Shown here in pieces: positions 24,866-61,618 of a DNA stretch of 64,000 bases (positions are counted from its first letter, which is position 1; every line of letters begins with the position of its first letter). The position numbers and the translations under genes were made by a program. The DNA lies in the NCBI GenBank assembly GCA_002371315.1, contig DFHL01000013.1, positions 5,742 to 69,741 on the forward strand. The letters run 5' to 3'. This DNA is from Bacteroidales bacterium UBA3724 (GTDB lineage: Bacteria > Bacteroidota > Bacteroidia > Bacteroidales > P3). Under the pieces are notes generated by a model. The model did no database searches. It was not told where the DNA came from and worked only from the letters and a program-made list of their open reading frames with translations.

Positions 24866-25049
24866 CCCCCACCCCGCCCCAACGCCATCCCCACATCACC
24901 CCCACACCGCCCCCACACCCATCCAACCTCCGAATCCAATCCCCCGGCACCAACCATCCATCCACCCGTCACCCCATACCCGACCCGTCGACACCCAAGA
25001 CCCAACCAGCCGTCGCCCGAACCCCGTCCGCCCAACACCCCTACCACAG
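24866..25049. other. extreme C-rich (minus strand G-rich) tract, G-quadruplex/i-motif prone
   Basis: By my count, 18 runs of three or more C in about 185 nt, with almost no T or G on the plus strand. Confidence 0.85.
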
Positions 25050-25086: not shown

Positions 25087-25285
25087 TCTGAAAAAGTTAT
25101 TAACAAATTCTGACCATCTTCTACTGGCGTAAAATTTGGTAAGAATTTGGTAAGAACTTGGGTAGAATTTGGTAAGAAGATGGTACCTGGAAAACAGACA
25201 GTTGCAAAAGGCCGTTTTTTGCCCGTTTTTGCCCCCTTCGGAAGGCAAGTTATCAACAATTTTCGGAGCCCTTTTCCAGAAAACT
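25087..25285 (+). repeat. dispersed intergenic element, copy 2
   Basis: ctACTGGCGtaaaaTTTGGTAagaaTTTGGTAagaacTTGGGTAgaaTTTGGTAagaagaTGGTAcctggaaaacag...gccgttttttgcccgtttttgcc. Bracketed by AGTTATTAACAAATT (25095) and AGTTATCAACAATTT (25248). Confidence 0.85.
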
Positions 25286-25412: not shown

Positions 25413-25503
25413 AATTTGAAGATTTTTCAGACAAGATTTGAAGATTTATTTTCATACTTTTGAAGATTTTTCTTTGCAGAATTGAAGATTTTCTGTATTT
25501 TTG
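25413..25503 (+). repeat. 4 x 22-bp direct-repeat array (TTGAAGATTT cores)
   Basis: Cores start at 25416, 25438, 25460 and 25482, exactly 22 bp apart. The last unit overlaps the promoter boxes of the AAA-ATPase gene. Confidence 0.85.
25473..25503 (+). promoter_or_regulatory. Bacteroidetes-type promoter for the AAA-ATPase gene
   Basis: TTTG (25473-25476), 19-nt spacer, TATTTTTG (25496-25503). The ATG is at 25525. Confidence 0.5.
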
Positions 25504-25524
25504 CAGCCAGAAAAACGATACAAT

Positions 25525-26712
25525 ATGATAAGACGAATTCATAATAACGACTTGATTTCCCGCATTAAGGAGCCTCGCCGCACTATCCAAGTGGTTGCCG
25601 GCCCTCGGCAAGTTGGCAAGACAACTATGGTAAAACAGGTTTTGGAAGAGCTGGCAATCCCTTCCTTGTATTGCAATGCCGATGCAGTAAAGCCTGACGA
25701 CAAGGGTTGGATAGCATCGCGGTGGGAAGAGGCCCGCTCGAGGATGCGCTTCGACGGCATAGGAGAATTTATTCTGGCTATAGACGAGATTCACAAAATC
25801 AACGACTGGAGCGAGCAAGTGAAAAAGGAATGGGACGCCGACAGCTTTAACAATATAAATATCAAGGTTATATTGCTCGGTTCGTCAAGGCTTCTGCTGA
25901 AAAAGGGATTGACCGAATCGCTTGCCGGACGGTTTGAGATTTTTCCAATGGGCCATTGGACATTCAAAGAGATGAATGAGGCTTTTGGCTTGAATATCAA
26001 CCAATACGTATATTTTGGCGGATACCCGGGCTCGGCCGCATACATAGCCAACGAGAGTCGCTGGCGCAAGTATATGCGTGATTCAATCATAGCACCTGCC
26101 ATCGAAAAGGATGTGCTGCAAACGACCTTTATCTACAAGCCCGCTTTGATGCATCAGCTGTTTCATCTTGGATGCAGCTATTCAGGCGAACTGCTGGCAT
26201 ACAACAAGATGCTTGGAATGCTGCAGGATGCCGGCAACGCGACCACATTGGCTGTCTATCTGAAGACGCTCGGCGAGAGCAAACTTCTGACTGGACTGCA
26301 GAAATACGCCCTCGACAGCGCACGCAAATACCGCTCAATCCCAAAACTCCAGGTTTACAACAATGCATTGCTTTCGGCAATGACAGACGGTATGACCTAC
26401 GAGAAGGCGTACACCAATCCCCAACTGTGGGGCAGATGGGTTGAATCGGCCGTCGGATGCTTCCTTCTCGACAAAGCCGAAGAGCTTGAATACCAGGTGT
26501 ATTATTGGCGAGAGAACAATATGGAGGTCGATTTCGTCATAGTAAGAGGCCAGAGTGTTTTGGCTATTGAAGTCAAAAGCGGCAAAATACAGATGAACAG
26601 CGGATTGGCGATATTCCGCGAACGCTTCAAGCCGCGCCACTCGCTGGTCGTCGGAGGCGATTCGATGCCCCTTGAATCGTTTTTCAACGGCGACATAGAG
26701 AACCTGCTGTAA
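25525..26712 (+). CDS. AAA-family ATPase with C-terminal PD-(D/E)XK-like (DUF4143-type) domain
   Basis: Walker A GPRQVGKTT, Walker B-like LAIDEIH, C-terminal NMEVDFVIV...LAIEVKSGK nuclease-fold motif. First ATG is at 25525 (the track uses TTG at 25501). Confidence 0.8.
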   Translation: MIRRIHNNDLISRIKEPRRTIQVVAGPRQVGKTTMVKQVLEELAIPSLYCNADAVKPDDKGWIASRWEEARSRMRFDGIGEFILAIDEIHKINDWSEQVKKEWDADSFNNINIKVILLGSSRLLLKKGLTESLAGRFEIFPMGHWTFKEMNEAFGLNINQYVYFGGYPGSAAYIANESRWRKYMRDSIIAPAIEKDVLQTTFIYKPALMHQLFHLGCSYSGELLAYNKMLGMLQDAGNATTLAVYLKTLGESKLLTGLQKYALDSARKYRSIPKLQVYNNALLSAMTDGMTYEKAYTNPQLWGRWVESAVGCFLLDKAEELEYQVYYWRENNMEVDFVIVRGQSVLAIEVKSGKIQMNSGLAIFRERFKPRHSLVVGGDSMPLESFFNGDIENLL

Positions 26713-26732
26713 CAAAAACAAATTCAACAATA

Positions 26733-26800
26733 CAACTTTTTCGGGGTTTTGACGTAATATACTCGTATGGAAGCGAAGAACATTATTGAGACAAAGAACA
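26733..26800 (+). repeat. direct repeat A (copy of the smpB upstream region + first 11 codons)
   Basis: caactttttcggggttttgacgtaat...ATGGAAGCGAAGAACATTATTGAGACAAAGAAC aligns with 27795-27862. Confidence 0.85.
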
Positions 26801-27777
26801 GTAATCTTTTGTTTAATGCCATATCGGGCATTATAAACGAGGCGCGTGGCAAAGCCTACCGTGCTGTCAATTTCGTTATGGTGCAGGCTTACTGGGAAAT
26901 AGGCCGACTAATCACCGATGACGAACTGAATGGACAGCGCGCGGCCTACGGCAAGGAAGTGCTGAAACATCTTGCCGCACGACTGACCAAGGAATACGGC
27001 AAAGGCTTTGACGAAAGAGAACTGCGCAAGATGTGCCAGTTTTACAAATACTTCCAAATTCGGGACACACTGCGTCCCGAATTGAGCTGGTCGCATTACC
27101 GCCGGCTGTTGAGCGTTGAAAACGAGAAAGCTCGGGTGTGGTATATGAACGAGGCCGCCGATGCCACGTGGTCAACTCGCCAGCTCGACCGGCAGATATC
27201 CACGTTGTATTACGAGCGTCTGTTGGCCAGCCGCGACAAGTCGCCCGTAATAGAAGAGGCCAAGGAGAAGATGTCCCAACTGCAGCCGCAGGATGTCTTT
27301 CACGACCCTTATGTGCTTGAATTTCTAAATCTGAAAGACTATCCTGCCTTGCACGAGAGCAATGTGGAAAAGGCACTGATAGACAATCTTCAAAGCTTCC
27401 TGCTGGAGCTGGGGACTGGCTTCTGTTTTGTGGCTCGGCAAAAGAGGATGCGCTATGGCGACGACGATTTCTATATAGACCTTGTCTTCTATCACAGTCG
27501 ACTGAAGTGCCACGTGCTGATTGACCTCAAGATGGGTAAGCTTACACACGCCGATGTTGGGCAGATGGATAGCTATATCCGTATGTTCGACGACCTGTAC
27601 AAGGCCGAGGACGACAATCCGACAATTGGTCTAATACTGTGTTCGGAAAAGAACGAGGCCGTGGCCCGCTATTCGGTACTTGCCGACGGGAAACAGATGT
27701 TTGCCGCAAAATATATGACTTATCTTCCTACAGAAGAGGAGCTGACAAGAGAGGTTGAGCGCGTGCTTAAAAATTAA
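26767..27777 (+). CDS. PD-(D/E)XK nuclease family protein (YhcG/DUF1016-type)
   Basis: 336 aa. N-terminal helical part (VNFVMVQAYWEIGRLI). C-terminal nuclease core DFYIDLVFYH...HVLIDLKMGKL...GQMDSY. Confidence 0.8.
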   Translation: MEAKNIIETKNSNLLFNAISGIINEARGKAYRAVNFVMVQAYWEIGRLITDDELNGQRAAYGKEVLKHLAARLTKEYGKGFDERELRKMCQFYKYFQIRDTLRPELSWSHYRRLLSVENEKARVWYMNEAADATWSTRQLDRQISTLYYERLLASRDKSPVIEEAKEKMSQLQPQDVFHDPYVLEFLNLKDYPALHESNVEKALIDNLQSFLLELGTGFCFVARQKRMRYGDDDFYIDLVFYHSRLKCHVLIDLKMGKLTHADVGQMDSYIRMFDDLYKAEDDNPTIGLILCSEKNEAVARYSVLADGKQMFAAKYMTYLPTEEELTREVERVLKN

Positions 27778-27794
27778 AATTCGGAGTGGAAGCA

Positions 27795-27862
27795 CAACAT
27801 TTTTGCGGTTTTGACGTAATTGTAGTTGTATGGAAGCAAAGAATATCATCGAAATAAAGAAC
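27795..27862 (+). repeat. direct repeat B (native smpB upstream region + first 11 codons)
   Basis: caacatttttgcggttttgacgtaat...ATGGAAGCAAAGAATATCATCGAAATAAAGAAC. Confidence 0.85.
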
Positions 27863-28282
27863 AAAAAAGCTGAGTATCAGTACTTCCTGATGGATTCGTA
27901 CACAGCGGGGCTGGTGCTGACGGGCACGGAGATAAAGAGTATCCGCGAGGGGCGCGCCAACCTGACGGATGCATACTGCGCCTTTATCGGCAACGAACTG
28001 TACGTGAAGCAGATGCACATTGCAGAGTACCGCTTCGGCAGCTGGCTGAACCACGCCGCCAAGCGCGACCGCAAGCTGCTGCTAAACCGCAAAGAGCTGC
28101 GCAAGCTGCAGAACAAAATCAAAGAACGCGGCTTCACCATCGTCCCTACGCTGCTGTTTATCAACCCCGAAGGCTACGCCAAGCTGAACATCTCGCTGGC
28201 GCGAGGCAAGAAATTCTTCGACAAGCGCGAAACCATCAAGGAGAAAGACACCCGCCGCGATATGGAACGCCAGCTGAGCTGA
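27830..28282 (+). CDS. smpB: SsrA-binding protein SmpB
   Basis: 150 aa. NKKAEYQYF...[19 protein letters not shown]...[20 protein letters not shown]. Confidence 0.95.
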
Positions 28283-28380: not shown

Positions 28381-29652
28381 ATGAACGTCTTCAAATTCGG
28401 CGGGGCATCCGTCAACAGCGCAGAAGCCATACGCAACGTGGCGGAAATCGTAAGGCAATATCTTGAAACGCCGCTGGTGGTGGTCATTTCGGCAATGGGC
28501 AAGACGACCAACCTGCTGGAAAAGGTGGTGCCCGGCGTGCCGACGTCGGACGACGAACGGCGAAAGCTGCTGCAGCAAAACACTGACTATCACCTGTCGA
28601 TTGCCGACAGCCTGTTTGCCGACAAGGGCGATCCGACCTATGGGCGGCTGCGCGAGTTGTTCGGCCGGCTCGACGAAGTGTCGTCCCGCAAGGCGACCAA
28701 CTACAACTTCGACTACGACCAGACGGTTTCGTTTGGCGAGCTGATTTCGACCACGCTCATTTCGGGATACCTTAACAGCATTGGAATCAGCAATGTATGG
28801 GTAGATGTTCGCGACATAATCCGCACCAACGAGAACTACCGCGAGGGCATCGTCGACTTCGACACCACCCGTCTCCAGGCACAAGAGACAATCAATTCGC
28901 AATTTACAACTCACAACTCGCAATTGATTATCACTCAAGGTTTCATCGCCGGCACCGCCGCCGGGACGACCACCACGCTGGGGCGCGAGGGCAGCGACTA
29001 CTCGGCCTCGATCCTCTCCTACTGCCTCGATGCCGACAATATGACCATCTGGAAAGACGTGCCGGGATTCCTCAACGCCGACCCCAAGTTTTTCGCCAAT
29101 ACCGTCAAAATAAACAAGATACCCTTCAACGAGGCCATCGAGCTTGCCTACTACGGCGCATCGGTGATACATCCCAAGACCGTCAAGCCAATCCAAAACA
29201 AGGGTATCCTGCTGAATATTAAGTCATTCCTCGACCCGTCGGCCGACGGGTCGGTCATCGGGCCCTTCGATTCTATAGAGCCGCTTACGCCGCTTTACAT
29301 CTTCAAAAACAATCAGATACTCATTTCCATACAGCCCAAAGACTTCTCCTTCATAGCCGAAGAGAATCTTCAAACCATCTTTGCCGTGCTGGCCGAGCTG
29401 AACATCCGCGTCAACCTGATGCAGAATTCGGCCCTGAGTTTCTCGCTCTGCCTCGACTACAACGAGATACTGCTCGACAAGATACGCGAGCGGCTCGAAT
29501 CGCAGTTCCGGCTGGTATATAACACAGGCTTGCAGCTGATTACGATACGCTACTACAACCAGCAGATAATCGACGAGATTGTCGACGGGCGAACGATACT
29601 GCTGCAGCAGCGTTCGCGAACGACAACGCAGCTATTAGTTGATTCCAAATGA
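28381..29652 (+). CDS. lysC: aspartate kinase
   Basis: 423 aa. N-terminal MNVFKFGGASV, TTLGREGSDYSA motif, C-terminal ACT-type regulatory region. Confidence 0.9.
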   Translation: MNVFKFGGASVNSAEAIRNVAEIVRQYLETPLVVVISAMGKTTNLLEKVVPGVPTSDDERRKLLQQNTDYHLSIADSLFADKGDPTYGRLRELFGRLDEVSSRKATNYNFDYDQTVSFGELISTTLISGYLNSIGISNVWVDVRDIIRTNENYREGIVDFDTTRLQAQETINSQFTTHNSQLIITQGFIAGTAAGTTTTLGREGSDYSASILSYCLDADNMTIWKDVPGFLNADPKFFANTVKINKIPFNEAIELAYYGASVIHPKTVKPIQNKGILLNIKSFLDPSADGSVIGPFDSIEPLTPLYIFKNNQILISIQPKDFSFIAEENLQTIFAVLAELNIRVNLMQNSALSFSLCLDYNEILLDKIRERLESQFRLVYNTGLQLITIRYYNQQIIDEIVDGRTILLQQRSRTTTQLLVDSK

Positions 29653-30323
29653 TTTACCGACTGACCAAAAGCAAATTCATCCGTGGTCTGCAATGCGAGA
29701 AGGCCCTTTATCTGGACGTCTACAAGCCGCAGCTGGCATACTATCCGCCCGAGACGCTGGAACGCTTTCGGAAAGGACGCGACTTCGAGGCCAAGGTCAA
29801 GTCGCTGTTTCCAAATGCCGTAGATGTAAGCCGACAGCTTGGACGGCAAATAGGGAAGTATCCCGAACTGACTGCCACGCTGCTTGCGCAGTCGGGCGAG
29901 GTGAACCTCTATGAGGCTGGTTTTGTGCATAATGAGGTACTTGTGCTGGCCGACGTTGTCCACAAGGATGCCGACGGAAACATCGCGGTTTATGAGATAA
30001 AGAATTCGCTGTCGGTCAAGGATGTCTTTCGCCGCGATGTGAACATACAGCACTATGTCATAAGTCATTGCATCGAGAAGCTGTCTTCGTTCTCAATAAT
30101 TTACAACGACGGCAACGACGAGCCATTATACGAGGAGCTCCTGGATGACGCGCGCGAGGCTGAACCGCTGATAGCAAAGCAGGTAGAGCGAATGAAAGAG
30201 GTGCTGCAGGGGATGGAACCCAGCGCGGAGCCCGGCGAGCAATGTTCGGCACCCTACGAGTGCCCCTACTTGCGCTACTGCAACGGCAAAGTGGCTACGC
30301 AGTTAGAGCTTGCTGAATTTTAG
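29649..30323 (+). CDS. Cas4/RecB-like PD-(D/E)XK nuclease family protein (DUF2779-like)
   Basis: 224 aa. N-terminal Cys (GLQCEKALY) plus C-terminal CSAPYECPYLRYC (Cas4-type Fe-S cysteine pattern). ADVV...VYEIKNS nuclease core. ATGA overlap with lysC. Confidence 0.65.
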   Translation: MIYRLTKSKFIRGLQCEKALYLDVYKPQLAYYPPETLERFRKGRDFEAKVKSLFPNAVDVSRQLGRQIGKYPELTATLLAQSGEVNLYEAGFVHNEVLVLADVVHKDADGNIAVYEIKNSLSVKDVFRRDVNIQHYVISHCIEKLSSFSIIYNDGNDEPLYEELLDDAREAEPLIAKQVERMKEVLQGMEPSAEPGEQCSAPYECPYLRYCNGKVATQLELAEF

Positions 30324-31373: not shown

Positions 31374-31508
31374 ATAGAGACTTTATTATTAGACATATAC
31401 ACCAATTCGGAATAATAGCGAAGAGATACAAAAGTACAAGAATTTTTGGATGCGTGTGATTTTTTTGTGGTTTTTGCGTTTAATATAGTCAAAAGCTTTC
31501 CGCAAAAT

Positions 31509-31997
31509 ATGCAGACAAACGAACATCCATTCCTCGAAACCATCACACGGCATACGGCACTTATCGAAAAGATGTGCCGCTCGTTTTGCGGCGACAGCCG
31601 AGAGGATCGCGAGGATCTTCGTCAGGATATACTGCTTAACCTGTGGAGAGGCTGGAAACATTGGAAACCAGAACATAAACCCATAACGTGGATATACCGC
31701 GTGGCGAAAAACACAGCCATCACGTGGAAGCGGAACAAGGAACGGCAAATAAATGTACAGCCGCTGGATCCCACAGATATTCCGCATTCCACAGACAACG
31801 ACGAAGCCGTCGAACAACTATACTCGCTCATACGACAATTGCCAGCAGAGGACCAAAGACTGATACAACTTTACATCGACGGATGGAACGCAAAGGAGAT
31901 GGCACGGATGCTGCAAACATCTGAAAGCAACGTCACTACACGTATTTCACGCATAAAGCAAAAGCTGAATGAAATGAACAGAAAGGAGCAACTATGA
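31509..31997 (+). CDS. ECF-type RNA polymerase sigma-70 factor
   Basis: Region 2 (DLRQDILLNLW...) and region 4 HTH (AKEMARMLQTSESNVTTRISRIKQKL). Start chosen at MQTNEHPF. Confidence 0.85.
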   Translation: MQTNEHPFLETITRHTALIEKMCRSFCGDSREDREDLRQDILLNLWRGWKHWKPEHKPITWIYRVAKNTAITWKRNKERQINVQPLDPTDIPHSTDNDEAVEQLYSLIRQLPAEDQRLIQLYIDGWNAKEMARMLQTSESNVTTRISRIKQKLNEMNRKEQL

Positions 31998-32278
31998 ATA
32001 CCGATATAATTATAGAACAACTGCACCAGGCCAATGCCGCCGAACGCCAGAAAGAACGCACCAGGCATATCAATTTCCGTCCTTGGTGGATAACAATACC
32101 TGCTGCTGCAGCTATAGTCCTGATGGTGTTGATTCCGCAACGCAGTAATGCCGAACCCAAACCTGTGACAGGCCTACACGTCTATTGCAACAATAACTGC
32201 CAGAAAGAGAATGCTATGGACATCATCAGGCAAAATATCAACGAGATAAGCATAACACCCATAGAATCAGAAATATGA
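31994..32278 (+). CDS. small single-pass membrane protein (possible anti-sigma factor)
   Basis: 94 aa with one TM helix (WWITIPAAAAIVLMVLI). 4-nt overlaps with the genes on both sides. Confidence 0.55.
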   Translation: MNTDIIIEQLHQANAAERQKERTRHINFRPWWITIPAAAAIVLMVLIPQRSNAEPKPVTGLHVYCNNNCQKENAMDIIRQNINEISITPIESEI

Positions 32279-32724
32279 AGAATCTCCTTTTTATATTATT
32301 GTCCTCGCTTGCCATCGCCACGGCACACAGCCAGTCGGCAATCTGCCTGCAGTTTCTGCCGCAAAAGAACATACAGACCTATTGCGTAGACAACTATCCA
32401 CTTGGCAGCGACGACAGCATAAACGTCACCTTCCTGATGGCTGCCGACAGCGACGCTTACAACACGATGATAAAATATCTGTTTACGCTGCCAAAACAGA
32501 ATCAACCATCGTCGTTAGAGCAGCATTCTACAAAATACAAGGACCTTGACAACAAAAAATATTTCATTATACGCCTATCTTCCGCCCTGCCCAGCGACAA
32601 AGGGCTATACCTAACCTTCTTTTCGCCCCACAACCTTTCGGCAACAATATTCCAGATAAGGGACAACAGAGATATGGAAAAAGTTGTGGCACACGTATTG
32701 ACCAGAGAAACCACAAAAGACTAA
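32275..32724 (+). CDS. hypothetical secreted protein
   Basis: 149 aa with an N-terminal signal peptide (MKNLLFILLSSLAIATAHSQ). Confidence 0.55.
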   Translation: MKNLLFILLSSLAIATAHSQSAICLQFLPQKNIQTYCVDNYPLGSDDSINVTFLMAADSDAYNTMIKYLFTLPKQNQPSSLEQHSTKYKDLDNKKYFIIRLSSALPSDKGLYLTFFSPHNLSATIFQIRDNRDMEKVVAHVLTRETTKD

Positions 32725-32729
32725 TACCG

Positions 32730-34994
32730 ATGAATTTACGTAACCTCTTGTTACCACTGCTGATAGCAGTGGCGGCACCCGCTGTGTGCCAAACCGTCGA
32801 CACGACAAAGACTGCGAAGCCGGCCAAAACCCTTCAGGCTGTGACCATTGCCGCAAAACGGCCCATCTACACCGCCGACGGCGAAAAGAACATATACAAC
32901 GTGGCCGACGACCCGTCGGTGCAGAGCGGAACCACCGAGGACGCGCTGCAAAACACACCCGGCGTGACGGTCGACGTTGAGGGTAACCTGCAGCTGCGCG
33001 GGGTAAGCAGCATAGAGATATGGATTGACGACAAGCCGTCGAAGCTGAGCGAGGAGAACCTGAAGACCTGGCTGCAGACACTGCCGGCCAGTGCCATAGA
33101 CCACATCGAAACCATCACGAATCCCTCGGCAAAATACGCGACCGAGGCCGAAGCCGTAATCAACATCATCACACGTGCCCACATCAAGAAAAACCATTTC
33201 CTGAGCTTTGGCCTGAACGCAGCTTCGCAGCCTTACGTCTCGCCGTGGATCAGCTACACCTGGGCCAGCGACAAGCTGTCGTTCAACATCTACGGCAGTT
33301 TTCGCAACAGCAATAACGACAACGAGTCGTGGAGCAAAAGCACCACATTCGGCGACGACCCCACAGCCCCGGGCGACCTCGAACGGCTGCAAATGCTGAT
33401 ACGCAACACCAACAGTTCAAACTATGGAACCCACAACAATATGGGCACCATTTTTATGAGCCTCAACTACGCCATCGACAGCACCAGCGACATCAACTTC
33501 TGGAGCAACCTGAGCCCCAGCACACACGATATCGAGTCCTCTCTGTGGGTGCAACGTGAGCATTTCTTTCCTTACCCTGCATTGTACATCTACAATCAAG
33601 ACCAGACACAACATTTCAACACGCTGTTTGGTTTTTTCGGAGGCTACTACACCAAACGATTCGACAAAAAAGGTCACAACCTGACCGTCAGCCTCAATGG
33701 AAACATCAACAAGACCGGCCAAAAAATCATCTATAACCGCGTCTATAGTGTCACCGACGGCCTGGAAAGCAATAGTTACAAATTCAAAGACGTAAACCAG
33801 TTTATGCCCTCCGTCACTATGCGGCTGCGCTACAACCGCCCATACAGCGACGATGGCGAGTTCACCTACGGACTGTCTGCTTCCCAGTCCAACAGCTACA
33901 GTGACCTTCAGCCTTACATACTCAATGCAGCCTATGACGAGCAGACCACCGTCCTCTCCCCTGCCCTGTACGACACGCTGCGACGCTACATCTTCAACGC
34001 CGACAACAAAGCCGCCGGTGCCGACATCGGATGGCAGCACAGGTGGGGAGGCCTCACACTGAAACTTGGAATGGGAGCAAGGATAAGCTACTACAAGTAT
34101 GCTTACACCGAGACGATTACACTTCCCGGTGTCGACACCTCACTGCTCAACATAACCTACAACCCCTCAATCCATCTGACCTATCGGACTGAGAAGATGC
34201 ACAACTTAAAACTCAACTACACGCTGCGGATGCAAAATCCGAACTCAAATGAATTGTCACAGTTCCGCACCTACGGCGAGGATAGCTATACAGTTGGCAA
34301 CCACAACCTTTCGCAGAGCTACATACACAGCGCCGAGGCGGGCTGGAGCAAATATATGAGCAAAGGCAGCATCAGCGCCGACCTGTACGCCAAACTGTCG
34401 ACCGGCGAAATAGAATGGCTCACGGACGTCACCGACGGCATCGACCCCTACATCGGCAGGGTGATAACCGTCAGCACACCCTACAATCTCGGCTCTTCGC
34501 ACCGCTACGGCCTGACTGCCAACGGCACTTGGCGCCCCACGGCCTTCTTCAACCTGCGCTTCGATGGAAATATCTATAACTATGGCTACAGCATACATTA
34601 CGACCGCCTGGGGCAAGAGCCGTACAGCAACAGCCAGTGGCAATACAGTATGAAACTGAATCTGTGGGCAAAGATACTGGGGCGCTATCAAGTGAACGCG
34701 TCGGCCAACTACACTTCGCCAACGATAGGGCTGCTGTCGACCGGAAGCGCGCAATACAGGCTCAACGCCGGCATCCGTGCCGACTTCTTCAAACGCAAGC
34801 TTAGCGCCTTCGTCAACATTCAGGACATCTTCAACTGGGGCAAACGTATTGGCAACGAAATCAATAACACCAATCCCTACTACATCCGCGAAAGCCTGAG
34901 CCGGACCCTCAACAGCCGCTACATCTCGGCCGGCATAACCCTGCGATTCGGCAAGATGGAGCTGGAAAGCAAAACCAAAAGCGGAAGCGAGTAG
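32730..34994 (+). CDS. TonB-dependent-receptor-like outer-membrane beta-barrel protein
   Basis: 754 aa. Signal peptide, plug-like region (DALQNTPGVTVDVEGNLQLRG...IETITNPSAKY), long beta-barrel, C-terminal LRFGK. Confidence 0.8.
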   Translation: MNLRNLLLPLLIAVAAPAVCQTVDTTKTAKPAKTLQAVTIAAKRPIYTADGEKNIYNVADDPSVQSGTTEDALQNTPGVTVDVEGNLQLRGVSSIEIWIDDKPSKLSEENLKTWLQTLPASAIDHIETITNPSAKYATEAEAVINIITRAHIKKNHFLSFGLNAASQPYVSPWISYTWASDKLSFNIYGSFRNSNNDNESWSKSTTFGDDPTAPGDLERLQMLIRNTNSSNYGTHNNMGTIFMSLNYAIDSTSDINFWSNLSPSTHDIESSLWVQREHFFPYPALYIYNQDQTQHFNTLFGFFGGYYTKRFDKKGHNLTVSLNGNINKTGQKIIYNRVYSVTDGLESNSYKFKDVNQFMPSVTMRLRYNRPYSDDGEFTYGLSASQSNSYSDLQPYILNAAYDEQTTVLSPALYDTLRRYIFNADNKAAGADIGWQHRWGGLTLKLGMGARISYYKYAYTETITLPGVDTSLLNITYNPSIHLTYRTEKMHNLKLNYTLRMQNPNSNELSQFRTYGEDSYTVGNHNLSQSYIHSAEAGWSKYMSKGSISADLYAKLSTGEIEWLTDVTDGIDPYIGRVITVSTPYNLGSSHRYGLTANGTWRPTAFFNLRFDGNIYNYGYSIHYDRLGQEPYSNSQWQYSMKLNLWAKILGRYQVNASANYTSPTIGLLSTGSAQYRLNAGIRADFFKRKLSAFVNIQDIFNWGKRIGNEINNTNPYYIRESLSRTLNSRYISAGITLRFGKMELESKTKSGSE

Positions 34995-42354: not shown

Positions 42355-42355
42355 G

Positions 42356-42428
42356 TGACCACGCTGGGGCTCGAACCCAGGACCCCATCCTTAAAAGGGA
42401 TGTGCTCTACCTGCTGAGCTACGTAGTC
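42356..42428 (-). tRNA. tRNA-Lys (anticodon UUU)
   Basis: The reverse complement GACTACGTAGCTCAGCAGGTAGAGCACATCCCTTTTAAGGATGGGGTCCTGGGTTCGAGCCCCAGCGTGGTCA folds as a 73-nt cloverleaf with anticodon loop CTTTTAA. Confidence 0.93.
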
Positions 42429-42449
42429 TGCGAAAACGACATTTACCAG

Positions 42450-42522
42450 TGACCACGCTGGGGCTCGAACCCAGGACCCCATCCTTAAAAGGGATGTGCT
42501 CTACCTGCTGAGCTACGTAGTC
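42450..42522 (-). tRNA. tRNA-Lys (anticodon UUU), identical second copy
   Basis: Same 73-nt sequence as 42356-42428, separated from it by a 21-nt spacer. Confidence 0.93.
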
Positions 42523-60670: not shown

Positions 60671-61618
60671 ATGACCAACGAAGAGTATAAAAAAGAGATT
60701 TTGAGGCTGAAAAAAGAGAAGAATGCCGTCATCTTGGGCCACTATTACCAGATTGACGAAATCCAGGAGCTGTCGGACTATGTGGGCGACAGCCTGGCGC
60801 TGGCGCAGGAGGCCCAGCGGACGGATGCCGACATCATCGTGTTTTGCGGCGTCCATTTTATGGCCGAGACGGCTAAGATATTGAATCCGAGTCGCAAGGT
60901 GCTGCTGCCCGACGTCAATGCAAGCTGCTCGTTGGCCGAGTCGTGCACGGGTGCCGACCTGAGGGAGTTCAAGAAGCGCTATCCCGACCATATCGTCGTG
61001 TCGTATGTCAACTGCTCGGCAGAGGTGAAGGCCGAATCAGACCTGATCTGCACTTCGGGCAACGCCGAGAAGCTTATCAACTCGCTTCCCGCCGACCAAA
61101 AGATTATTTTTGCCCCCGACAAGAACCTTGGTGGCTACATCAACCGCCAGACGGGCAGGCAGATGGTGCTGTGGAACGGTGTCTGCACGGTCCACGACGC
61201 TCTGGAGGCGGAAAGTATACTGCGGCTGAAGCAGCAGAACCCCGAAGCCCCGGTGGTGGCCCATCCCGAATGCAACGCTGCAGTGCTGGCGGTGGCCGAT
61301 TTTGTTGGTTCGACCAAGGCAATGCTGAACTATATTGCCGCCTCGGCAAGCCGGAGGTTCATCGTCGTCACCGAATCGGGCATACTGTACGAGATGAAGC
61401 GCAACAATCCTGACAAGGAGTTCATTGCCGTGCCCGGCGGCGAGGGATGCATCTGCGCCGAATGTTCGTATATGAAGATGAACACTCTCGAAAAACTGTA
61501 CAAATGCCTGTGCGATGAGACTCCCGAAATCACGCTCGACAGCGAGATGATCGAGAAGGCTGCCCGCCCGATAGTGAGGATGCTGGATATGTCGCGCCAG
61601 CTGGGTATAATCAAGTAG
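60671..61618 (+). CDS. nadA: quinolinate synthase
   Basis: 315 aa. ILGHYYQ, FCGVHFMAETAKIL and HPEC motifs, C-terminal Cys ligands. Confidence 0.95.
   Translation: MTNEEYKKEILRLKKEKNAVILGHYYQIDEIQELSDYVGDSLALAQEAQRTDADIIVFCGVHFMAETAKILNPSRKVLLPDVNASCSLAESCTGADLREFKKRYPDHIVVSYVNCSAEVKAESDLICTSGNAEKLINSLPADQKIIFAPDKNLGGYINRQTGRQMVLWNGVCTVHDALEAESILRLKQQNPEAPVVAHPECNAAVLAVADFVGSTKAMLNYIAASASRRFIVVTESGILYEMKRNNPDKEFIAVPGGEGCICAECSYMKMNTLEKLYKCLCDETPEITLDSEMIEKAARPIVRMLDMSRQLGIIK

What the first reader, a model, noticed from the sequence alone, without database searches (positions are those of the whole stretch)
26733..27862. DUF1016-type nuclease gene bracketed by a duplicated smpB upstream region and first 11 codons
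The segments 26733-26800 and 27795-27862 are direct repeats. Each comprises about 35 nt upstream (..TTTT-G-GGTTTTGACGTAAT..) followed by the first 11 codons. As a result both the nuclease gene and smpB begin MEAKNIIE(T/I)KN.

In the 33 coding nucleotides I count 6 differences. Five are synonymous third-position changes. This is the pattern expected if both N-termini are translated and under selection, not that of a fresh duplication.

The likeliest history is that a cassette landed in the 5' end of smpB, duplicated the target, and captured the smpB expression signals. The tmRNA/SmpB neighbourhood is a classical island-integration hotspot, but I see no integrase.
Basis: seen in the sequence. 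Interest (0 to 1): 0.68.

Follow-up and report, generated by a model that had tools for sequence, protein, structure and literature searches.

The report
Nuclease gene borrowing smpB's start signals
An accessory nuclease gene (a candidate phage-defence gene) sits just upstream of the ribosome-rescue gene smpB and is fused to a second, diverged copy of smpB's promoter-like element and first 11 codons; this is a tidy but fairly ordinary case of expression-signal capture by illegitimate recombination, not a mobile element.

Summary
Window 26732-26800 and 27794-27863 are direct repeats: 57/70 identical, local score 73 against 17 +/- 2 for shuffles.

The repeated unit is native to smpB. All 80 related species keep ME(A/E)KNIIEIKNK. 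In 47 of them a bipartite motif, CAA(C/T)A-N15-CGT(T/A)A, sits in fixed register 12-17 nt before the ATG. The repeat starts at that motif's -35-like box and ends at codon 11.

The gene between the repeats is an intact YhcG/DUF1016 PD-(D/E)XK nuclease (PADLOC candidate PDC-S02; dN/dS 0.03-0.09). None of 80 species representatives has it near smpB. A sister species carries a TfoX_N gene at that position, in front of a single promoter copy.

The window has no integrase, transposase, tmRNA or terminal inverted repeats.

The event is old: every sampled contig of the window's haplotype group (aspartokinase 423 aa) has the gene or its remnants. The gene body was later replaced by a horizontally acquired allele, and several strains have deleted the nuclease domain.

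A parallel case (L105) resolves to unequal recombination between two alternative haplotypes at a 7-nt microhomology.

The 5:1 synonymous pattern does not prove selection on the nuclease N-terminus. Interest is moderate.

The parts
25501..26712 (+). AAA_14/DUF4143 ATPase gene (PADLOC candidate PDC-S01). It is the left neighbour in the variable slot and is itself present or deleted among strains.
   Evidence: Pfam and PADLOC PDC-S01 at E = 5e-171. The same ~1035-bp deletion (25519-26553) occurs in L001, L199, L201 and L203.
26732..26766 (+). Copy 1 of the smpB-type upstream element: -35-like ACAAC at 26732-26736, a 16-nt spacer after AAC, -10-like CGTAAT at 26753-26758, then an 8-nt leader.
   Evidence: Exact match to AAC-N16-CGTAAT. 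It matches copy 2 at 29/36 positions. The motif is conserved upstream of smpB in 47/80 species.
26767..26799 (+). Start codon and first 11 codons derived from smpB ([11 protein letters not shown]), fused in frame to the nuclease.
   Evidence: 27/33 nt identical to smpB codons 1-11. The SmpB N-terminus is conserved in 80/80 loci. The Pfam DUF1016_N match starts only at residue 19. Homologue N-termini are hypervariable.
26767..27777 (+). Chimeric YhcG/DUF1016 PD-(D/E)XK nuclease gene, 336 aa (PADLOC candidate PDC-S02).
   Evidence: Pfam PF17761 (148.7 bits) and PF06250 (190.1 bits). PADLOC PDC-S02 at E = 5e-142. Invariant D238 and D253-L-K255. dN/dS is 0.03-0.09.
26808..27748 (+). Gene body that is 93% nt identical to nadA-linked alleles from other hosts; a horizontally acquired replacement segment.
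   Evidence: blastn against L172, L093 and L173. Sliding-window and segment identities. The NadA proteins of those hosts are only 76-83% identical to the window's NadA.
27158..27661 (+). 504-nt in-frame segment, the nuclease catalytic core, deleted in some strains between 11-nt direct repeats. The boundaries are ambiguous by the length of the repeat.
   Evidence: L187/L200, L191, L193 and L194 encode a 168-aa product containing only DUF1016_N.
27778..27793 (+). 16-nt spacer between the nuclease stop codon and copy 2. No terminator-like site lies here.
   Evidence: Sequence and terminator scan.
27794..27829 (+). Copy 2 of the upstream element: ACAAC at 27794-27798, CGTAAT at 27815-27820, then a 9-nt leader. 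This is the copy that serves smpB.
   Evidence: It is part of the 489-nt window-L001 match (27794-28282) that is 95% identical, against 83% for copy 1. It is retained, with smpB, in strains that have lost copy 1 and most of the nuclease gene: L199, L201 and L204.
27830..28282 (+). smpB, 150 aa, intact.
   Evidence: Pfam PF01668 at 185 bits. The same protein occurs in many contigs.

Best explanation
The segment is a single-gene accessory cassette in a variable slot immediately upstream of smpB in an uncultured rumen/hindgut Bacteroidales species. The cassette encodes an intact YhcG/DUF1016 PD-(D/E)XK nuclease, a family listed as the single-gene phage-defence candidate PDC-S02.

Its 5' end is a second, diverged copy of smpB's own expression module. 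That module is a bipartite, ECF-sigma-like promoter motif (AAC-N16-CGTAAT) lying only 8-9 nt before the ATG, then the ATG and 11 codons, joined in frame to nuclease codon 12. The nuclease is therefore most likely transcribed and translated from a copy of smpB's signals on a nearly leaderless mRNA, while smpB keeps its own complete copy just downstream (inferred). Because the -10 box lies so close to the ATG, capturing this promoter almost forces capture of the start codon and some codons, which explains the fusion (inferred).

The structure arose by illegitimate, non-site-specific recombination. That could be a partial duplication or an unequal crossover between alternative haplotypes of the slot. 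No integrase or transposase was involved (inferred from anatomy and from the resolved parallel case L105).

The event is old. The cassette or its remnants are in every sampled contig of the window's haplotype group, and a second species has the same architecture in a decayed form. The nuclease body was later overwritten by a horizontally acquired allele, and several strains have since deleted the catalytic domain or nearly the whole gene (shown).
For: - Repeat and fusion.
- Family assignment and intact catalytic residues. Strong purifying selection on the body, dN/dS 0.03-0.09.
- The repeated unit is native to smpB. The N-terminus is conserved in 80/80 loci. The motif is in fixed register in 47/80 loci. 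The motif is enriched in the window (5 hits against 0.29 expected) and usually sits just upstream of long ORFs (6/10 against 11.7% of random positions).
- Both copies keep exactly N16 spacing.
- No DUF1016 lies within 6 kb of smpB in 80 species representatives.
- The sister species L001, L197 and L198 have TfoX_N at that position and a single promoter copy. L006, L013 and L016 have only ~200 bp between the aminotransferase gene and smpB. L003 has a TIR-WG protein and L004 a DUF4160/DUF2442 pair in the slot.
- No tmRNA or integrase, and the window is collinear with L001. No inverted repeats at the cassette ends.
- Mosaic gene and horizontal transfer of the body.
- Same architecture in a second species (L088-L091), with a drifted N-terminus and a deletion in the smpB-proximal promoter copy.
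- The smpB-type promoter carried to a nadA locus by recombination (L084).
- Decay alleles.
- Parallel case L105. The widespread haplotype is MtaB-DUF1016-GT2. The alternative haplotype is ORF6N-GT2 (L174). L105 is the two stacked, with the junction at the microhomology CGATGCC and a remnant of the MtaB tail.
- Bracketing repeats occur at 3/48 independent DUF1016 loci against 0/407 control genes.
Against: - Nothing here shows transcription start sites or that the motif is a promoter. The ECF-like reading rests on sequence pattern and general knowledge only.
- The origin of the window's own duplication is not resolved. No haplotype with a nuclease carrying its native 5' end next to smpB was found, and no smpB allele identical to copy 1 was found among the 80 species.
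- The flanks of both copies look partly native, so I cannot say which copy is the original.
- Synonymous sites in the 11 codons are saturated (5 differences in 5.2 sites) while non-synonymous sites are nearly unchanged (1 in 27.8). My alternatives are a copy 1 that spent most of that time as a real smpB 5' end in another lineage, or gene conversion. Both are inferred.
Confidence: 0.6

Rival explanations
1. First reader's model. A discrete nuclease cassette inserted into smpB after codon 11 and generated a ~68-bp target duplication. Both copies then diverged in place, with purifying selection acting on the SmpB-like N-terminal peptide of both proteins.
For: - The topology is exactly that of an insertion with target duplication.
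- In the second species (L088) the left copy sits in a native-looking upstream flank, GGTTTCATACAAC, close to the corresponding flank of L013.
- Synonymous sites are saturated and non-synonymous sites nearly unchanged. With all 6 changes on an unconstrained copy, the probability of one or fewer amino-acid changes is 0.0017.
- Bracketing repeats are enriched at DUF1016 loci.
Against: - There is no transposase, integrase or terminal inverted repeats.
- The family N-terminus is hypervariable and lies outside the Pfam domain.
- In L088-L091 the peptide has drifted to MASNNYIEKTE, so it is dispensable there.
- Copy 2 and L001 share the derived state TTTTTGCGG, while copy 1 keeps the CGGGG state of L002 and L004. 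The two copies are therefore not each other's closest relatives.
- The best-resolved parallel (L105) is not an insertion of the nuclease gene.
Confidence: 0.2
2. An integrative element with att-like repeats, analogous to SXT integrating into the 5' end of prfC. A circular form carrying its own copy of the smpB 5' end integrates by site-specific or Campbell-type single crossover. This restores smpB and leaves diverged attL and attR.
For: - The repeats are diverged (81%) rather than identical, as expected for attP x attB hybrids.
- The longest identical core is 14 nt, GGTTTTGACGTAAT.
- The unit between the repeats is gene-sized.
Against: - There is no recombinase in the unit or the neighbourhood.
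- The unit was found with this promoter only at smpB, plus one recombinant nadA locus that arose by crossover inside the gene.
- All losses seen in the population are random deletions. None is a precise excision between the repeats.
Confidence: 0.06
3. The nuclease mobilises its own gene in a homing-like or nuclease-driven way. It cuts upstream regions of housekeeping genes, and repair leaves long (55-95 bp) duplications.
For: - Three of 48 independent DUF1016 loci have bracketing repeats of 55 nt or more, against 0/407 control genes (Fisher p = 0.001; about 0.01 without the window).
- The genes are ORF-sized inserts tightly embedded next to housekeeping genes. There is a 4-nt overlap with nadA and with mtaB.
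- The nuclease domain was predicted to resemble Holliday-junction resolvases (PMC1189080).
Against: - L105 is explained without any movement of the nuclease gene, which is the ancestral resident there.
- L095 looks like stacking of two DUF1016 alleles.
- No near-identical copies were found at unrelated sites.
- The enrichment can simply reflect that these genes live in recombination-prone variable slots.
Confidence: 0.05

Closest known systems
YhcG/DUF1016 family of PD-(D/E)XK nucleases (Pfam PF17761 + PF06250; COG4804; PADLOC phage-defence candidate PDC-S02)
   Same: Both Pfam domains score far above the curated cut-offs, and the conserved acidic and lysine residues of the nuclease motif are intact. 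As in the literature, the gene is an uncharacterised single gene found in mobile elements, in restriction-modification loci and in variable regions.
   Different: Its first 11 codons and its promoter-like element come from smpB. Among the 120 closest clusters, only the identical-gene cluster shares this N-terminus. No function, defence or otherwise, has been tested for this protein.
SXT/R391 integration into the 5' end of prfC, where the element supplies a new promoter and N-terminus for the host gene (recalled from the literature, not read here)
   Same: An insertion at the 5' end of a translation-related housekeeping gene leaves two versions of that gene's 5' end, and the host gene stays functional.
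   Different: SXT is a ~100-kb conjugative element with a tyrosine integrase and a short identical att core. Here the unit is one 1-kb gene with no recombinase, the repeats are 81% identical, and the extra 5' end is used by the inserted gene rather than supplied to the host gene.
Core-gene-flanked hotspots or 'slots' for defence and accessory genes
   Same: The same position between an aminotransferase gene and smpB holds different accessory genes in different lineages: TIR-WG, DUF4160/DUF2442, TfoX_N, PDC-S01 and PDC-S02. PDC-S01 and PDC-S02 are reported as abundant in rumen genomes (PMC13356809).
   Different: The slot is tiny (0.2-5 kb) and shows no mobile-element hallmarks. Here the occupant has been wired to a duplicate of the flanking core gene's promoter and start.
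tmRNA (ssrA)-associated genomic islands next to smpB in enterobacteria
   Same: Only that smpB is the neighbouring gene.
   Different: Those islands target the 3' end of ssrA through integrases. This window has no tmRNA gene and no integrase.
Chimeric genes and promoter capture by partial (segmental) duplication or unequal crossover at microhomology
   Same: The outcome is an in-frame fusion of a neighbour's 5' end to another gene, with the parental gene preserved. In the parallel case L105 the junction lies in a 7-nt microhomology and both flanking gene ends are partly duplicated.
   Different: The junction in the window itself shows no clear microhomology, and its parental haplotypes were not found.

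Membership tests
YhcG/DUF1016 nuclease (PDC-S02) | N-terminal DUF1016_N domain and C-terminal YhcG_C PD-(D/E)XK domain above the Pfam gathering scores | tested here: met
   PF17761 scores 148.7 bits (cut-off 32.8) and PF06250 scores 190.1 bits (cut-off 32.5). PADLOC PDC-S02 at E = 5e-142.
YhcG/DUF1016 nuclease (PDC-S02) | Conserved catalytic D...(D/E)xK residues | tested here: met
   D238 and D253-L254-K255 are invariant in a 27-sequence alignment. The body has dN/dS 0.03-0.09.
YhcG/DUF1016 nuclease (PDC-S02) | Nuclease or anti-phage activity | not testable with these tools
   No solved homologue by sequence. The AlphaFold model was too poor to use, mean pLDDT 51.
SmpB | Full SmpB domain | tested here: met
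   PF01668 scores 185 bits over residues 9-149. The nuclease shares only residues 1-11 and is not a SmpB.
Integrase-mediated integrative element (att repeats) | Site-specific recombinase gene in or next to the unit | tested here: not met
   The unit holds only the nuclease ORF. The flanks are collinear with L001.
Integrase-mediated integrative element (att repeats) | Target at a tRNA or tmRNA gene, or identical att core with precise empty sites | tested here: not met
   No tmRNA, and the tRNAs are 14 kb away. Losses within the species are imprecise deletions. The identical core is only 14 nt.
Transposon or insertion sequence with target-site duplication | Transposase, terminal inverted repeats, short identical direct repeats | tested here: not met
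   No transposase domain. No inverted repeat at the ends. The repeats are 69-70 nt long and 81% identical.
ECF-sigma-type promoter | AAC in the -35 box and CGT in the -10 box, separated by 16-17 nt (general knowledge of ECF promoters) | tested here: met
   Both copies match AAC-N16-CGTAAT. The motif is conserved in register in 47/80 smpB loci and enriched upstream of ORFs.
ECF-sigma-type promoter | Transcription start downstream and dependence on an ECF sigma factor | not testable with these tools
   No expression data. An ECF-type sigma gene lies at 31446-31997, but no link to this motif was shown.
Free-standing homing endonuclease gene | Near-identical copies at the same site across diverged hosts, with co-converted flanks and a cleavable empty site | tested here: inconclusive
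   The gene body has been transferred horizontally, but no cleavage data exist. The parallel case L105 needs no nuclease-gene movement.

The most novel reading that the evidence does not exclude
Bracketing duplications of a neighbour's 5' or 3' end are a recurrent signature of how single-gene defence candidates such as PDC-S02 are stacked into tiny slots beside housekeeping genes. The route would be microhomology-mediated unequal recombination without any recombinase. In the process these genes become wired to, and sometimes become the sole carrier of, the housekeeping gene's promoter. In L088-L091 the smpB-proximal copy has lost its -35 region, which would make the cassette hard to delete. 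This would be a general, integrase-independent route to defence-islet formation and retention.
Probability: 0.25. Interest if true: 0.6.

Novelty: new variant of a known kind. Interest (0 to 1): 0.4.

Why it matters
The locus gives a concrete, sequence-resolved example of how an accessory nuclease gene becomes expressed in a new genome without bringing a promoter. It acquires a duplicate of the neighbouring core gene's promoter, start codon and first codons.

The slot upstream of smpB also records the later life of such a gene in one place: replacement of the body by a foreign allele, export of the captured promoter to another locus (nadA), and repeated loss of the catalytic domain.

If the pattern is general (3 of 48 DUF1016 loci against 0 of 407 control genes), it points to a recombinase-free way of building and keeping small defence loci in gut Bacteroidales. 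Two of the most abundant 'candidate' defence genes of the rumen, PDC-S01 and PDC-S02, sit side by side here.

The work also flags a conserved ECF-like promoter motif with an almost leaderless layout in this lineage. That motif can be tested directly.

Tried and rejected
- Looked for a donor smpB allele matching copy 1 among 80 species. None is closer than 3-6 differences in 33 nt, and the upstream part is about equally distant from L001, L002, L004 and copy 2.
- Looked for a pristine empty site within the same species. The contigs that lack the gene (L199, L201, L204) still carry a ~130-nt remnant of it. True single-copy sites without remnants are only in other species.
- Tried to decide which copy is the original from the flanks. 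The result was ambiguous.
- Structure prediction from a 27-sequence alignment gave mean pLDDT 51, so I ran no fold search. A PDB sequence search found nothing.
- NCBIfam gave only a sub-threshold NucS hit.
- The sigma-70 promoter and terminator scan was no better than shuffles. It is not designed for Bacteroidota.
- Rfam found no RNA element in the region.
- Literature searches found no report of mobility, or of a tested function, for DUF1016/YhcG/PDC-S02.
- I first read L105 and L174 as a filled and empty pair for a nuclease-gene insertion. I rejected that after finding that MtaB-DUF1016-GT2 is the widespread ancestral arrangement.
- Rejected an assembly artefact, because there are many independent assemblies.
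- Rejected the tmRNA-hotspot analogy, because there is no ssrA in the window.
Full report
**Observation**

The direct repeat is real. Copy 1 (26732-26800) and copy 2 (27794-27863) align with 57 matches in 70 columns and one 1-nt indel in the leader. The upstream part matches 29/36 and the coding part 27/33. The local score between the 5' region of the nuclease gene and the region after its stop is 73. Two thousand shuffles gave 17.1 +/- 2.2 with a maximum of 29. The highest score among 407 other long genes of the window and 80 related loci is 36.

The ORF at 26767-27777 has both YhcG/DUF1016 domains, and 27830-28282 is smpB. The two proteins start [11 protein letters not shown] and [11 protein letters not shown]. 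The 33 nt differ at six positions, five of them synonymous. The arrangement recurs at 97-99% identity in more than ten independent assemblies, so it is not an assembly artefact.

**What the repeated unit is**

A scan of one genome per species returned 80 smpB loci from uncultured rumen and hindgut Bacteroidales. All 80 SmpB proteins begin ME(A/E)KNIIEIKNK or a close variant, so the coding part of the repeat is native to smpB.

In 47 of the 80 loci a bipartite motif, CAA(C/T)A-N15-CGT(T/A)A, lies in a fixed register 12-17 nt before the ATG. This can also be written AA(C/T)-N16-CGT. The closest relatives (L001, L002, L004, L006, L010, L011, L013) have the ACAAC...CGTAAT form seen in the window.

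Both window copies match AAC-N16-CGTAAT exactly. In the best alignment the single indel lies in the leader, downstream of CGTAA, so the spacer length is the same in both copies despite three substitutions in it.

The layout is that of ECF-sigma promoters (AAC in the -35 box and CGT in the -10 box, from general knowledge). It is not the Bacteroidota TTTG/TAnnTTTG housekeeping type. In the window the motif is about 17-fold over-represented (5 hits against 0.29 expected). Six of ten hits have a long ATG-ORF starting 4-29 nt downstream, against 11.7% of random positions.

The repeat thus begins at the -35-like box and ends at codon 11. It is a complete expression module with an almost leaderless layout. 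That it acts as a promoter is inferred, not shown.

**What lies between the copies**

The 336-aa protein is a full-length member of the YhcG/DUF1016 family. PADLOC lists this family as the single-gene phage-defence candidate PDC-S02. The gene to its left, an AAA_14/DUF4143 ATPase, is candidate PDC-S01.

The literature describes DUF1016 only as a predicted PD-(D/E)XK nuclease. It is found in mobile elements, inside restriction-modification loci and near programmed inversions, and both candidates are abundant in rumen genomes. I found no tested function.

The catalytic residues are invariant, and the body evolves under strong purifying selection, with dN/dS 0.03-0.09. The Pfam domain starts at residue 19, and the first ~13 residues are hypervariable among close homologues. 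Among the 120 closest protein clusters, only the identical-gene cluster begins MEAKNIIE.

**Relatives and empty sites**

None of the 80 species representatives has a DUF1016 gene within 6 kb of smpB. The aminotransferase-smpB interval is a small variable slot:

| Locus | Content of the slot |
|---|---|
| L006, L013, L016 | about 200 bp, no gene |
| L003 | TIR-WG protein |
| L004 | DUF4160/DUF2442 pair |
| L001 and its relatives L197, L198, L202, L205, L206 | TfoX_N gene |
| window | PDC-S01 plus PDC-S02 |

L001 has 100% SmpB identity and about 89-95% nt identity in the flanks. It has a single copy of the module. The 489-nt window-L001 match that begins at copy 2 and runs through smpB is 95% identical, whereas copy 1 matches L001's single copy at only 83%.

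The window has no tmRNA gene. It is collinear with L001 apart from the AAA gene and this cassette. The cassette ends carry no inverted repeats. The tmRNA-island analogy therefore does not apply, and there is no recombinase.

**History of the locus**

1. *The cassette is fixed in the window's haplotype group.* Among ten contigs that encode the identical SmpB, the DUF1016 contigs and the TfoX_N contigs form two separate groups. The DUF1016 group has a 423-aa aspartokinase 99 nt downstream of smpB; the TfoX_N group has a 419-aa one (423 aa in L197) about 180-230 nt downstream. I read these as the window's species and its sister. Every contig of the window's group carries the nuclease gene or its remnants:
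   - full length in L203 (among those ten contigs); L188, L190 and L192, found through the identical AAA protein, are also full length;
   - a 348-aa variant from a 1-nt deletion in an A-run in L081-L083;
   - an in-frame 504-nt deletion of the catalytic core between 11-nt repeats in L187/L200, L191, L193 and L194;
   - a ~130-nt remnant lacking copy 1 in L199, L201 and L204.

   In that last group smpB keeps only copy 2, so copy 2 is evidently sufficient for smpB. No loss is a precise excision between the repeats.

2. *The gene is a mosaic.* Positions 26808-27748 are 93% identical in DNA (dS 0.33) to alleles that sit immediately upstream of nadA in other hosts (L093, L172, L173). The NadA proteins of those hosts are only 76-83% identical to the window's NadA. 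The window's own nadA (60671-61618) has no DUF1016 upstream. The body was therefore acquired horizontally and recombined into an older frame that provided the 5' module and the last nine codons.

3. *A second species has the same architecture in decayed form.* In L088-L091 (SmpB 99% identical) the nuclease gene is preceded by ACAACATTTTCGGGGTTTTGACGTAAT. Its N-terminus reads MASNNYIEKTE, and the smpB-proximal copy has lost its -35 region.

4. *The captured promoter has moved to another locus.* One nadA-linked allele (L084) carries that smpB-type upstream region and N-terminus. Sliding-window identity shows that its 5' half, including at least 80 nt upstream, came from an L088-type allele by a crossover inside the gene.

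**The synonymous pattern**

Five of 5.2 synonymous sites differ, against one of 27.8 non-synonymous sites. If all six changes fell on an unconstrained copy, one or fewer amino-acid changes would have probability 0.0017. With three such changes the probability is 0.13, and with two it is 0.41. Changes on the real smpB copy can only be synonymous.

Equal-time neutral drift of copy 1 in place is therefore unlikely, but selection on the nuclease N-terminus is not the only way out. Copy 1 keeps the CGGGG state of L002 and L004, while copy 2 and L001 share the derived TGCGG state, so the two copies are not each other's closest relatives. Copy 1 may have spent most of its divergence time as a genuine smpB 5' end in another lineage, or it may have been reset by gene conversion. 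The drifted peptide in L088 and the hypervariable family N-terminus argue against a required peptide. With 11 codons the question stays open.

**Mechanism of origin**

I looked for the same topology at other DUF1016 genes. Three of 48 independent loci have bracketing repeats, against 0 of 407 control genes. Fisher's test gives p = 0.001, or about 0.01 without the window.

The clearest case is L105. A ~90-nt copy of the first 30 codons of a GT2 gene lies on both sides of the nuclease gene. At first this looked like an insertion with an empty site in L174. However, MtaB-DUF1016-GT2 is the widespread ancestral arrangement. In L105 the sequence after the left copy is a remnant of the mtaB 3' end, and the junction lies in the 7-nt microhomology CGATGCC, shared by GT2 codons 28-30 and the mtaB tail.

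L105 is therefore an unequal, illegitimate recombinant that stacked an ORF6N-GT2 haplotype onto the resident MtaB-DUF1016-GT2 haplotype. The left copy and its flank are 99% identical to L174, whereas the right side is 96.6% identical.

L095 looks like a similar stacking of two DUF1016 alleles next to a DNA methylase gene.

By analogy, and given the lack of any recombinase, I favour the same kind of event for the window. Its own parental haplotypes were not found, and the flanks do not reveal which copy is original. A one-off insertion with a long target duplication remains possible.

**How it most likely works**

Shown: an intact, constrained nuclease ORF is fused in frame to a diverged copy of smpB's conserved upstream motif, ATG and 11 codons. 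smpB retains its own copy, and no terminator-like site lies between the two genes.

Inferred: both copies act as promoters. The nuclease is made as a chimera with an 11-residue passenger peptide. The fusion was needed because the -10 box is only 8-9 nt from the ATG. The gene is a dispensable accessory (possibly defence) function that is gained, exchanged and lost, as the decay alleles show.

**Comparison, novelty and verdict**

The protein is a clear member of the YhcG/DUF1016 (PDC-S02) family. The locus is not an integrase island, a transposon or a tmRNA-linked island, because the defining features were tested and not met. It resembles the SXT/prfC situation only in outcome.

It is best filed as promoter and start-codon capture by partial duplication or unequal recombination in a core-gene-flanked accessory slot. 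That is a new variant of known kinds of event.

The most novel reading still open is that such bracketing duplications mark a general recombinase-free route for stacking and retaining single-gene defence candidates beside housekeeping genes. I give that a probability of about 0.25. Overall interest is moderate, at 0.4.

Noticed in passing
window 866, 2015, 26734, 27796, 39143, 51512 (+ strand): The ECF-like motif AA(C/T)-N16-CGT(A/T)A is over-represented in the window. The stricter form CAAYA-N15-CGTWA gives 5 hits against 0.29 expected. Six of ten hits of the looser form lie 4-29 nt upstream of a long ATG-ORF, against 11.7% of random positions. This suggests a common promoter type with almost leaderless mRNAs in this lineage.
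   Followed up: partly
window 31446-31997 (+), 31994-32724, 32730-34994: An ECF-type sigma factor gene (Sigma70_r2 + r4_2) lies 3.2 kb downstream of smpB. It is followed by two small ORFs without Pfam hits and a TonB-dependent-receptor-like outer-membrane protein. I tested no link to the smpB motif.
   Followed up: no
window 24866-24919, 25129-25185, 25415-25491: Three short tandem-repeat arrays (11-nt and 22-nt units) lie between the aminotransferase gene and the AAA/PDC-S01 gene. The number of 22-nt units at 25415-25491 differs between strains, for example L187 against the window.
   Followed up: no
window 25519-26553; L001, L199, L201, L203: The same ~1035-bp internal deletion of the AAA_14/DUF4143 (PDC-S01) gene, leaving a 72-aa C-terminal remnant, occurs in the sister species L001 and in several strains of the window's species. 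It occurs independently of whether the nuclease gene is present.
   Followed up: partly
window 27158-27661; L176 1452-2006: The nuclease domain has been lost twice independently by deletion between short direct repeats. Each time an open DUF1016_N-only ORF remains. The window-type 504-nt in-frame deletion lies between AACGAGGCCG repeats (L187/L200, L191, L193, L194). The deletion in L176 lies between GCAATTCATTAG repeats.
   Followed up: partly
L081-L083 (equivalent to window 27770-27777): A 1-nt deletion in the A-run before the stop codon extends the nuclease ORF by 12 codons (348 aa) into the promoter-like copy 2. The ORF ends at the TGA inside TTTTGACG.
   Followed up: no
window 60671-61618 (+) and L084, L093, L172, L173: In other hosts the closest alleles of this nuclease gene sit directly upstream of nadA with a 4-nt stop/start overlap. 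In Muribaculaceae-like contigs another allele overlaps the mtaB-like gene's stop by 4 nt. The window's own nadA has no such gene. DUF1016 genes seem to be habitually embedded in housekeeping operons.
   Followed up: partly
L088-L091 (L088 4328-4360): In the second species with a nuclease-smpB arrangement, the smpB-proximal promoter copy has lost its -35 region and part of the spacer. smpB may therefore depend on the promoter copy in front of the nuclease gene.
   Followed up: no
window 42355-42522 (-): Two tandem tRNA-Lys(TTT) genes. These are the only RNA genes detected in the window.
   Followed up: no
window 29649-30323 (+): A conserved 224-aa ORF overlaps the aspartokinase stop by 4 nt. 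It has no Pfam or NCBIfam hit, but it is syntenic downstream of smpB and aspartokinase in many related species.
   Followed up: no
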